Made by a program: the position numbers and the translations under genes
Part shown: positions 2,616-3,052 of the stretch, in pieces
How the letters are laid out: the number at the start of each line of letters is the position of its first letter
Numbering within the stretch: position 1 is the stretch's first letter
Virus record (IMG/VR): IMGVR_UViG_2671181106_000001
Reading direction: 5' to 3' (one strand)
DNA length: 7,942 nucleotides
Origin: a virus
Lineage: Duplodnaviria; Heunggongvirae; Uroviricota; Caudoviricetes
The notes under the pieces: model-generated
The model's database searches: none
Told to the model about the DNA's origin: nothing
Seen by the model: only the letters and a program-made list of their open reading frames with translations

Positions 2616-2918
2616 ATGAGCGATAAGCAGACTGAAAAGACCATTCAACTGGATACCCCTATCAAGCGCGGTAAAACAGAAATTACCGAAATTGTGCTGC
2701 GTAAACCGCAGTCCGGTGCGCTGCGCGGTACACGCCTGCAGGCCATTATGGATATGGATGTGAACGCGATGATGACCGTGATCCCCCGCATTTCCAGTCC
2801 GGCACTGACTGCACAGGAAATCGCAGAGATGGACCCGGCAGATCTCACAGCCATGTCGGTTGAGGTTGTCACTTTTTTGTTGAAGAAGTCGGTGCTTGCC
2901 GGTTTACCGACAGCCTGA
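2616..2918 (+). CDS. E: Tail assembly chaperone (P2 gpE homologue), zero-frame product
   Basis: 100-aa ORF in the expected position between tube and tape measure; AGGA RBS; contains the slippery heptamer near its 3' end. Confidence 0.88.
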   Translation: MSDKQTEKTIQLDTPIKRGKTEITEIVLRKPQSGALRGTRLQAIMDMDVNAMMTVIPRISSPALTAQEIAEMDPADLTAMSVEVVTFLLKKSVLAGLPTA

Positions 2919-3052
2919 CGGTTGACGATCTGGTGGCAGATATCGCCACCATCTTTCACTGGCCGCCATCCGTTACTGACGTTATGCCGCTGACCGAAGT
3001 GCTGGAATGGCGGTATAAAGCGATTCAGAGAAGCGGGGCCAACGATGAGTGA
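2616..3052 (+). CDS. E+E': Tail assembly chaperone frameshift product (P2 gpE+E' homologue), made by programmed -1 ribosomal frameshift at 2873-2879
   Basis: Slippery T-TTT-TTG in the E zero frame (ACT TTT TTG); the -1 frame is open from 2879 to a TGA at 3050-3052 (VEEVGACRFTDSLTVDDLVADIATIFHWPPSVTDVMPLTEVLEWRYKAIQRSGANDE) and ends overlapping the T start, the same geometry as P2 E/E' and the lambda G/GT paradigm. Predicted product about 145 aa. Confidence 0.75.
2873..2879 (+). other. Programmed -1 frameshift slippery heptamer (T TTT TTG)
   Basis: XXXYYYZ-type heptamer in the correct phase of the E reading frame, about 13 codons before the E stop. Confidence 0.7.

What the first reader, a model, noticed from the sequence alone, without database searches (positions are those of the whole stretch)
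2873..3052. Programmed -1 ribosomal frameshift generating E+E' tail chaperone
A T-TTT-TTG slippery heptamer sits in phase about 13 codons before the E stop, and the -1 frame is open for 57 codons, terminating exactly over the T start codon. This reproduces the conserved G/GT-type recoding of dsDNA phage tail assembly chaperones. The E' extension has no start codon, so standard ORF callers miss it.
Basis: partly seen in the sequence, partly recalled or inferred. Interest (0 to 1): 0.4.

Follow-up and report, generated by a model that had tools for sequence, protein, structure and literature searches.

The report
P2-type E/E+E' tail chaperone frameshift
This is the well-known programmed -1 ribosomal frameshift that lets P2-like phages make a short and a long tail-assembly chaperone (E and E+E') from one start codon.

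Summary
The window is the FI-FII-E-T-U-D tail operon of a P2-like (Peduoviridae) prophage of E. coli. An in-phase T TTT TTG lies at 2873-2879, 12 sense codons before the E stop. The -1 frame is then open for 57 codons to TGA 3050-3052, which overlaps the tape-measure gene T by 8 nt (ATGAGTGA).

The -1 extension is a full-length match to Pfam Phage_P2_GpE (E = 4e-19). The modelled fusion aligns without gaps across the junction with P2 E+E' (49% identity). In P2 the shift is annotated at the same heptamer, and the literature reports it as demonstrated there.

A tblastn of the fusion finds both halves, in two frames, in 388 phage records. 14 of 19 diverse relatives carry TTTTTTG at the same place, and the other five carry other X XXY YYZ heptamers. 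Substitutions favour third positions of the -1 frame.

Two corrections apply. The E' stop lies just after the T ATG, not on it. The -1 frame does contain a GTG (2933), from which RefSeq and several phage records annotate a separate 39-aa "GpE family" protein.

No conserved stimulatory structure was found. In this copy the late activator gene ogr is interrupted by an IS element, so the signal may be silent here. Already known; low interest.

The parts
2046..2561 (+). FII, major tail tube gene (upstream neighbour that defines the chaperone's position)
   Evidence: PF04985 Phage_tube, E = 8.8e-60. Annotated 'phage major tail tube protein' in the 99.8% identical E. coli prophage.
2616..2918 (+). 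Gene E, zero-frame product of 100 aa (tail assembly chaperone)
   Evidence: ORF and translation. PF10109 Phage_TAC_7, E = 2.2e-18; phrog_103 tail protein, E = 4e-44. RefSeq calls it 'phage tail assembly protein'.
2861..2863 (+). TGA in the -1 frame, three codons upstream of the heptamer. It sets the 5' limit of the window in which a productive -1 shift can occur.
   Evidence: The -1 frame translation reads ...HVG*GCHFFVEEV; the frame is open over 2864-3052. P2 has a -1 stop at the same relative place.
2873..2879 (+). Slippery heptamer T TTT TTG (zero-frame codons ACT TTT TTG = Thr-Phe-Leu)
   Evidence: Same heptamer and phase as the annotated P2 site. Present in 79 of 80 IMG/VR loci whose E protein is identical to the window's (one has TTTTTTA) and in 14 of 19 diverse Peduoviridae.
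2879..3052 (+). E' extension: 57 codons in the -1 frame plus TGA. The modelled E+E' is join(2616..2879, 2879..3052), 145 aa with junction ...VVTFL-VEEVGACRF...
   Evidence: PF06528 Phage_P2_GpE, E = 4e-19, profile positions 1-37 of 37; phrog_1756, E = 1.8e-22. 56% identical to P2 E'. Substitutions beyond the E stop fall 5/2/10 and 3/3/12 on -1-frame codon positions 1/2/3 in two relatives.
2933..3052 (+). The part of E' that public annotation calls a separate 39-aa 'GpE family phage tail protein' (GTG start); judged an annotation artefact
   Evidence: The SD score upstream of the GTG equals the coding background (-3.7 against a mean of -3.74 kcal/mol). The equivalent codon is Ala, Trp or Ile in four relatives, and the residues just upstream of it are conserved.
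3045..6122 (+). T, tape measure gene. Its ATG overlaps the end of E' by 8 nt (ATGAGTGA).
   Evidence: PF10145 PhageMin_Tail, E = 4.3e-18. RefSeq calls it 'phage tail tape measure protein'. Overlap read.
2862..2866 (+). GAGGT, a Shine-Dalgarno-like stretch 6 nt upstream of the heptamer; a candidate upstream stimulator, not established
   Evidence: Anti-SD duplex of -6.8 kcal/mol, within the best 6% of local windows. All 14 loci with TTTTTTG have such a stretch, and the 5 relatives with other heptamers do not. A synonymous-recoding control leaves the window's value unremarkable (fraction of recodings as good 0.32-0.49).
2888..2919 (+). Imperfect hairpin starting 8 nt after the heptamer; probably fortuitous
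   Evidence: For 2880-2960 the z-score is -1.88, and 9 of 200 shuffles fold at least as well. It is kept only in near-identical relatives and is absent from P2 and more distant relatives. There is no Rfam match.

Best explanation
Gene E (2616-2918) encodes the abundant 100-aa form of the P2-type tail assembly chaperone.

A minority of ribosomes slip back one nucleotide when the P and A sites hold UUU-UUG of the heptamer U UUU UUG (2873-2879). The two tRNAs re-pair with UUU-UUU. The next codon read is GUU at 2879, and translation continues for 57 codons in the -1 frame to UGA 3050-3052. The result is the 145-aa E+E', which shares its first 88 residues with E.

By analogy with phage lambda G/GT, the E part is expected to coat the tape measure protein T. 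The E' part of the rare long form would recruit the tube protein FII so that the tube polymerises around the tape measure. Neither form would stay in the finished tail.

Shown here: the signal, both reading frames, their homology to P2 E and E', their conservation, and the coding signature of the -1 frame. Taken from the literature: that the shift occurs in P2 at TTTTTTG (PMC3091744), and that its efficiency in P2 and related phages is 2- to 3-fold that of lambda, whose G:GT ratio is 30:1 (PMC5009743). Inferred: the shift in this copy, the identity of the junction residue (Leu), and the division of labour between the E and E' parts.
For: Sequence anatomy.

Family hits: E matches PF10109 Phage_TAC_7 at 66.5 bits (cut-off 25). 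The extension matches PF06528 Phage_P2_GpE at 68.2 bits (cut-off 23). PHROG tail families also hit, and phrog_1756 spans residues 85-145 of the fusion, so it crosses the junction.

Comparison with P2: the fusion aligns with P2 E+E' at 49% identity over 139 aa, with no gap and the junction in the same column, E = 4e-51. The E' part alone is 56% identical. P2 RefSeq annotates E+E' as a joined CDS with 'site of -1 translational frameshift' at the same TTTTTTG. PSP3 and KL3 are annotated in the same way.

Spread: tblastn of the fusion finds 425 phage records, and in 388 one place covers at least 80% of the fusion. All listed examples of these are two-piece matches, as expected when the two halves lie in different frames. 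Of 19 diverse relatives, 14 have in-phase TTTTTTG. The others have TTTTTTC, TTTTTTT, GGGAAAG, CCCTTTC or AAATTTT at the equivalent place, all of them X XXY YYZ.

Selection on the -1 frame: the extension is 52-71 aa in every relative and carries the motif [VI]-[DE]-[DE]-x-x-A-D-[IVL]-A...F-H-W. The zero-frame tail varies from 5 to 22 aa and is poorly conserved. Beyond the E stop, changed codons are synonymous more often than not (9 against 6, and 11 against 4).

Gene order is tube - E - E' - tape measure. Literature: PMC3091744, PMC5009743.
Against: Nothing in the sequence argues against it, but there are limits.

- No protein-level evidence exists for this copy.
- U UUU UUG is not among the heptamers listed as most efficient in E. 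coli (PMC4066793).
- No conserved stimulator was established. The hairpin is marginal and not conserved, and the SD-like stretch is inconclusive.
- ogr, which from my own knowledge of P2 activates the late operons, is interrupted by an IS element in this window. The operon may therefore never be transcribed in this host.
Confidence: 0.93

Rival explanations
1. E' is made on its own as a 39-aa protein. Translation would start at GTG 2933, either by direct initiation or by re-initiation of ribosomes that have just terminated at the E stop 15 nt upstream. This is what the RefSeq annotation implies. No fusion would be needed.
For: RefSeq/PGAP and several phage records annotate exactly this ORF. 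In most relatives the equivalent residue is Met or Val, so the codon could be start-capable. The E stop is close enough for termination-reinitiation.
Against: The GTG has no Shine-Dalgarno sequence (-3.7 kcal/mol, equal to the coding background mean). The equivalent codon encodes Ala (Ralstonia), Trp (Vibrio) or Ile (Mannheimia, Acidovorax), which are not start codons. The 18 codons between the heptamer and the GTG are conserved as protein: 10 of 18 are identical to P2, including L-[ST]-V-D-D-L, which lies past the E stop. Those codons can only be reached from upstream. phrog_1756 covers them too. In P2 the literature reports a 142-aa E+E' made from the E start codon (PMC3091744).
Confidence: 0.03
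2. The frame change happens during transcription. RNA polymerase would stutter on the T6 run and add one extra U to a fraction of the mRNAs. Those mRNAs would then be translated normally into E+E', with the junction ...T-F-F-V...
For: 2873-2878 is a homopolymer of six T. A one-base insertion would give the same downstream frame. The sequence data here cannot formally separate the two routes.
Against: From my own knowledge, efficient slippage by E. coli RNA polymerase needs runs of about nine or more A or T. Relatives place GGGAAAG, CCCTTTC and AAATTTT at the same position. These allow tandem tRNA slippage but contain no homopolymer longer than four bases. The base after the run is G in 14 of the 16 relatives with a T6 run, not an extension of the run. 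The P2 case is treated as ribosomal in the literature (PMC3091744, PMC5009743).
Confidence: 0.02
3. The signal is intact but is an unused relic in this genome. This concerns expression rather than identity, so it is not exclusive of the best explanation. The prophage would be defective because its late activator gene ogr is interrupted, and neither E nor E+E' would be made.
For: ogr is identical to an intact copy only up to 7856. From there the window continues into the end of an IS21-family IS100kyp element. From my own knowledge, P2 late operons need Ogr. A TGT-N12-ACA dyad lies upstream of FI at 770-787.
Against: All seven ORFs of the window are intact and 97-99.8% identical to prophages with an intact ogr, so any decay is recent. 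A co-resident P2-like prophage or a satellite such as P4 could supply an activator in trans (own knowledge).
Confidence: 0.35

Closest known systems
Bacteriophage P2 genes E and E+E' (Christie et al. 2002, J Bacteriol 184:6522; RefSeq NP_046781 and NP_046780)
   Same: Same heptamer TTTTTTG in the same phase and the same alignment column. Same -1 direction. The extension is 57 codons in both. Both have the 8-nt ATGAGTRA overlap with T and a -1-frame stop three codons before the heptamer. Gene order is FII-E-E'-T in both. The fusion proteins are 49% identical with no gaps.
   Different: E is 100 aa here and 91 aa in P2. The zero-frame tail after the heptamer is 12 codons here and 6 in P2. DNA in the E-E' region matches Elveevirus (phage Cartapus, 97.8%) and Felsduovirus (Fels-2, 86%) relatives, while the best tblastn match to P2 itself is 49%. 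This copy sits next to a tail-fibre invertase that P2 lacks and has a disrupted ogr.
Phage lambda G/GT tail assembly chaperones, and the conserved frameshift of long-tailed dsDNA phages (Levin 1993; Xu, Hendrix and Duda 2004, 2013, 2014)
   Same: Two overlapping ORFs lie between the major tail/tube gene and the tape measure gene. They are joined by a low-frequency -1 shift at an X XXY YYZ heptamer near the end of the first ORF. The expected role is a fixed ratio of short to long chaperone (PMC5009743).
   Different: The heptamer differs; lambda uses G GGA AAG (own knowledge). No sequence similarity to lambda G or T is expected (own recollection of Christie 2002; not tested here). The reported efficiency is 2- to 3-fold higher in P2-like phages (PMC5009743). 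The tail here is contractile.
Phage Mu gp41/gp42 region and other members of Pfam Phage_TAC_7 ('E, or 41 or 14')
   Same: Same Pfam family for the upstream ORF. A Zymomonas homologue of E is annotated as 'Mu-like prophage FluMu protein gp41' and has TTTTTTT at the equivalent place.
   Different: Mu is reported to use -2 frameshifting (PMC5009743). The window uses the -1 geometry.
E. coli dnaX tau/gamma -1 frameshift
   Same: -1 tandem slippage in E. coli. dnaX uses an upstream Shine-Dalgarno-like stimulator, and an SD-like GAGGT lies 6 nt upstream of the heptamer here.
   Different: From my own knowledge, dnaX uses A AAA AAG, a spacer of about 10 nt and a strong downstream hairpin, and its shift truncates the protein. 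Here the shift extends the protein, no conserved hairpin was found, and the SD-like stretch is not shown to be selected.

Membership tests
P2 gpE / gpE+E' tail assembly proteins | The upstream ORF belongs to the E / tail assembly chaperone sequence family | tested here: met
   PF10109 Phage_TAC_7 at 66.5 bits (cut-off 25), profile positions 1-78 of 79; phrog_103, E = 4e-44.
P2 gpE / gpE+E' tail assembly proteins | The -1 frame extension belongs to the GpE (E') sequence family | tested here: met
   PF06528 Phage_P2_GpE at 68.2 bits (cut-off 23), profile positions 1-37 of 37. 56% identity to P2 E' with no gaps.
P2 gpE / gpE+E' tail assembly proteins | An in-phase slippery heptamer (TTTTTTG in P2) lies near the 3' end of E, at the point where the -1 frame opens | tested here: met
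   T TTT TTG at 2873-2879; the -1 frame is open from 2864. It falls in the same column as the annotated P2 site.
P2 gpE / gpE+E' tail assembly proteins | The genes lie between the tail tube gene FII and the tape measure gene T in an FI-FII-E-T-U-D operon | tested here: met
   Pfam assignments of all neighbouring genes and the RefSeq annotation of a 99.8% identical prophage.
P2 gpE / gpE+E' tail assembly proteins | A fused E+E' polypeptide is made at roughly a tenth of E, and E' is essential for tail assembly | not testable with these tools
   Known for P2 only from the literature (PMC3091744, PMC5009743, and my recollection of Christie 2002, which is not in the held library). No expression data exist for this copy.
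Lambda G/GT-type frameshifted tail assembly chaperone pair (Xu et al. 2004) | Two overlapping ORFs directly upstream of the tape measure gene and downstream of the major tail gene, with the second ORF lacking its own start at its 5' end | tested here: met
   The first start-capable codon in the -1 frame is 18 codons after the heptamer.
Lambda G/GT-type frameshifted tail assembly chaperone pair (Xu et al. 2004) | The arrangement is conserved across relatives even where the sequence diverges | tested here: met
   388 phage records hold a match covering at least 80% of the fusion, and the listed examples are two-piece (two-frame) matches. All 19 diverse loci examined have an X XXY YYZ heptamer and a -1 extension of 52-71 aa.
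Lambda G/GT-type frameshifted tail assembly chaperone pair (Xu et al. 2004) | The short form binds the tape measure, the extension binds the tube protein, and both are absent from virions | not testable with these tools
   Inferred by analogy with lambda (PMC5009743). No solved structure of a sequence relative exists. No structure prediction was attempted.

The most novel reading that the evidence does not exclude
U UUU UUG is not among the heptamers reported as most efficient in E. coli (PMC4066793). In P2-like phages it might owe its comparatively high shift rate to a Shine-Dalgarno-like stretch 4-17 nt upstream. All 14 relatives with TTTTTTG have such a stretch, including Burkholderia phages where it is a different sequence (GGGGGG) encoding different residues. 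None of the 5 relatives that switched to another heptamer has one. If so, the P2 family would be a dnaX-like, rRNA-pairing-stimulated frameshift that has not been described as such.
Probability: 0.2. Interest if true: 0.3.

Novelty: already known. Interest (0 to 1): 0.08.

Why it matters
Scientifically this adds nothing new. The P2 E/E+E' frameshift was reported in 2002, and its conservation in P2-like phages is documented.

The practical value is for annotation. In RefSeq/PGAP and many phage records the E' frame is filed as an independent 39-aa 'GpE family phage tail protein' rather than as the frameshift extension of E. Proteome databases therefore lack the true 145-aa product.

The window also shows a prophage whose late-gene activator is knocked out by an insertion sequence. 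That matters to anyone who wants to induce it.

Tried and rejected
- NCBIfam scan of E, E' and the fusion gave no family.
- Rfam scan of the whole window gave no match.
- PDB sequence search with the fusion gave nothing at E up to 1.
- IMG/VR scan with E returned 80 loci, all with an E protein identical to the window's. They were useless for divergence and served only to show 79 TTTTTTG and 1 TTTTTTA. Diversity came from 15 phage records fetched one by one, analysed together with the window, P2, RE2010 and Cartapus.
- The Christie 2002 paper is not in the held library. Secondary sources were used instead.
- Downstream stimulatory structure: the hairpin at 2888-2919 is marginal (z = -1.88) and not conserved beyond near-identical relatives, so it was rejected as a family feature.
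- Upstream SD-like stimulator: it stands out against local background but largely follows from the encoded residues, so it is left as inconclusive.
- A second in-phase heptamer, G GGG GGA at 6104, lies three codons before the T stop and leads into the U frame. It is the Shine-Dalgarno sequence of U (-11.9 kcal/mol) and was rejected as a recoding site.
- My automatic ORF picking chose the wrong frame for the Ralstonia and phiCTX loci. This was corrected by hand.
- Heavy protein database searches and structure prediction were not run. The answer was already clear and would not have changed.

Full report
**What the window is**

The 7942 bases carry, on the + strand:
- a serine recombinase (110-721);
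- tail sheath FI (864-2036);
- tail tube FII (2046-2561);
- a 100-codon ORF E (2616-2918);
- tape measure T (3045-6122);
- U (6119-6604);
- D (6601-7701).

All have clear Pfam assignments. The whole stretch is 97-99.8% identical to P2-like prophages, and 950 of 5426 complete E. coli genomes hold at least 80% of it. In the E-E' region the closest named phages are Escherichia phage Cartapus (Elveevirus, 97.8%) and, at about 86%, Fels-2 and its Salmonella relatives.

**Checking the observation**

In the E frame the sequence reads ACT TTT TTG. This puts T TTT TTG at 2873-2879 in X XXY YYZ phase. Twelve sense codons and the TGA at 2916-2918 follow.

The -1 frame has a TGA at 2861-2863 and is then open from 2864 to 3049, ending at TGA 3050-3052. 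That is 57 codons after the slip. The +1 frame is full of stops. The coordinates and counts in the finding are therefore right.

The heptamer alone is not beyond chance. The seven genes contain 7 in-phase X XXY YYZ sites in 2416 codons, where about 9 are expected. Only 9.9% of codon positions in the window are followed by 57 or more open -1 codons. What follows shows that the arrangement is real.

**Two details of the finding need correcting**

- The -1 stop is not exactly on the T start codon. T's ATG is at 3045-3047 and the stop at 3050-3052, an 8-nt overlap (ATGAGTGA). P2 and the other enterobacterial relatives share it as ATGAGTRA.
- The -1 frame is not free of start codons. GTG 2933, ATG 2984 and GTG 2999 lie in it. 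RefSeq/PGAP and several phage records annotate a free-standing 39-aa 'GpE family phage tail protein' from the GTG.

**What it is**

- The 57-residue -1 translation is a full-length match to Pfam PF06528 Phage_P2_GpE (68.2 bits against a cut-off of 23, E = 4e-19). E matches PF10109 Phage_TAC_7, a tail assembly chaperone family.
- The PHROG tail family phrog_1756 covers residues 85-145 of the modelled fusion, so it runs across the junction.
- The modelled fusion (...VVTFL-VEEVGACRF..., 145 aa) aligns with P2 E+E' over 139 residues with no gap, 49% identity and E = 4e-51. The junction falls in the same column.
- The E' part alone is 32 of 57 identical.
- In the P2 RefSeq record, E+E' is a joined CDS with a 'site of -1 translational frameshift' at GGT TTT TTG, the same heptamer in the same phase. 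PSP3 and Burkholderia phage KL3 are annotated in the same way.

**Conservation**

A tblastn of the fusion against 50,697 phage records finds 425 records. In 388 of them one place covers at least 80% of the query. Every such hit that was listed is made of two pieces, as expected when the two halves sit in two reading frames. These records span Escherichia, Klebsiella, Salmonella, Yersinia, Burkholderia, Ralstonia, Pseudomonas, Vibrio and other hosts.

I analysed 19 loci: the window, P2, RE2010, Cartapus and 15 further diverse relatives.
- Fourteen have in-phase TTTTTTG at the equivalent place.
- The other five have TTTTTTC, TTTTTTT, GGGAAAG, CCCTTTC or AAATTTT. All are X XXY YYZ heptamers.
- In all 19 the -1 extension is 52-71 residues and carries the motif [VI]-[DE]-[DE]-x-x-A-D-[IVL]-A...F-H-W...W-R.
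- The zero-frame tail after the heptamer ranges from 5 to 22 residues and is poorly conserved.

Among 80 IMG/VR contigs with an identical E protein, 79 have TTTTTTG and one has TTTTTTA. Beyond the E stop, differences from two relatives fall mostly on third positions of the -1 frame (5/2/10 and 3/3/12). Changed codons are mostly synonymous (9 against 6, and 11 against 4).

**How it most likely works**

When UUU and UUG occupy the P and A sites, the two tRNAs slip back one base onto UUU-UUU. The next codon read is GUU at 2879. Translation then runs to the UGA that overlaps the T start. The ribosomes that do not slip terminate at 2916-2918.

This step is inferred for the window. It is reported for P2, which makes a 91-aa E and a 142-aa E+E' from one start at TTTTTTG (PMC3091744). 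The efficiency in P2 and related phages is given as 2- to 3-fold that of lambda, whose G:GT ratio is 30:1 (PMC5009743).

The function is inferred by analogy with lambda G/GT. The short form would coat the tape measure. The rare long form would bridge the tape measure to the tube protein (PMC5009743).

**Stimulators**

An imperfect hairpin starts 8 nt after the heptamer (2888-2919). Its z-score is only -1.88, and it is absent from P2 and more distant relatives. This agrees with the published statement that P2 has no such structure (PMC3091744).

A Shine-Dalgarno-like GAGGT lies 6 nt upstream of the heptamer. All 14 loci with TTTTTTG, the window included, have an SD-like stretch at -20 to -4 that is within the best 0-7.5% of local windows. 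The five relatives with other heptamers do not. When the encoded residues are held fixed and only synonymous codons are varied, much of the signal is explained by the residues, and the window's value is unremarkable (0.32-0.49). I leave this as an open lead. It is of some interest because U UUU UUG is not listed among the most efficient heptamers in E. coli (PMC4066793).

**Rivals**

- Independent initiation at GTG 2933, as the public annotation implies, is unlikely. There is no Shine-Dalgarno sequence there. The equivalent codon encodes Ala, Trp or Ile in four relatives. The residues between the heptamer and that codon are conserved, including those past the E stop.
- Transcriptional slippage on T6 cannot be formally excluded from sequence alone. 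However, relatives use heptamers with no long homopolymer at the same site, and six T is short for E. coli RNA polymerase slippage (own knowledge).

**Novelty and verdict**

This is the known P2 E/E+E' recoding site in a common E. coli prophage.

The only points of practical note are the widespread split annotation of E' and the state of this copy. Here ogr is interrupted after about 21 codons by the end of an IS21-family IS100kyp element. The operon, and so the frameshift, may be silent in this host.

Noticed in passing
window 7792-7942: ogr, the late-gene activator (an ogr/Delta-like zinc-finger protein), is identical to an intact copy up to 7856 and then runs into the istB-side end of an IS21-family IS100kyp element. 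The gene is therefore interrupted after about 21 codons, and the prophage is probably defective for late gene expression. The exact junction is ambiguous by about 6 nt (TTCATT, 7851-7856).
   Followed up: partly
window 110-721 (RefSeq start equivalent to 155), and L001 1-3649: A serine recombinase (Resolvase + HTH_7) lies directly upstream of FI. In the intact relative it sits beside oppositely oriented tail-fibre and tail-fibre-assembly genes. This looks like a Gin/Cin-type invertible host-range switch, which P2 itself lacks. The crossover sites were not searched for.
   Followed up: no
window 770-787: A TGT-N12-ACA dyad (TGTATGAATAACGGTACA) lies about 80 nt upstream of the FI start. From my own knowledge this is the position expected for a P2-type Ogr-dependent late promoter. 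The pattern as such is not above chance in the window (3 found, 2.1 expected).
   Followed up: partly
window 6104-6110: An in-phase G GGG GGA lies three codons before the T stop, with the -1 frame continuing into U. It coincides with the Shine-Dalgarno sequence of U (anti-SD duplex -11.9 kcal/mol). It is best read as a ribosome binding site, not a second recoding signal.
   Followed up: yes
window 2862-2866, and the equivalent positions in L002-L004 and L085-L097: A Shine-Dalgarno-like stretch lies upstream of the heptamer in all 14 loci that carry TTTTTTG, and in none of the 5 relatives with other heptamers. A synonymous-recoding control leaves it inconclusive.
   Followed up: partly
window 2933-3052; L001 5861-5980: RefSeq/PGAP (WP_000763311.1) and several GenBank phage records annotate the E' frame as an independent 39-aa 'GpE family phage tail protein'. 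The Pfam model PF06528 matches only this 37-residue stretch, which starts right after that supposed start codon.
   Followed up: yes
L004 431-858 (P2 RefSeq NC_001895): If the P2 E+E' join repeats base 19685, the position its frameshift misc_feature gives (the join coordinates themselves were not shown), the junction codon reads TTC (Phe). Re-reading the G of TTG would instead give GTC (Val), which is what tandem slippage predicts. The deposited junction residue may therefore be an annotation convention rather than a measured one.
   Followed up: no
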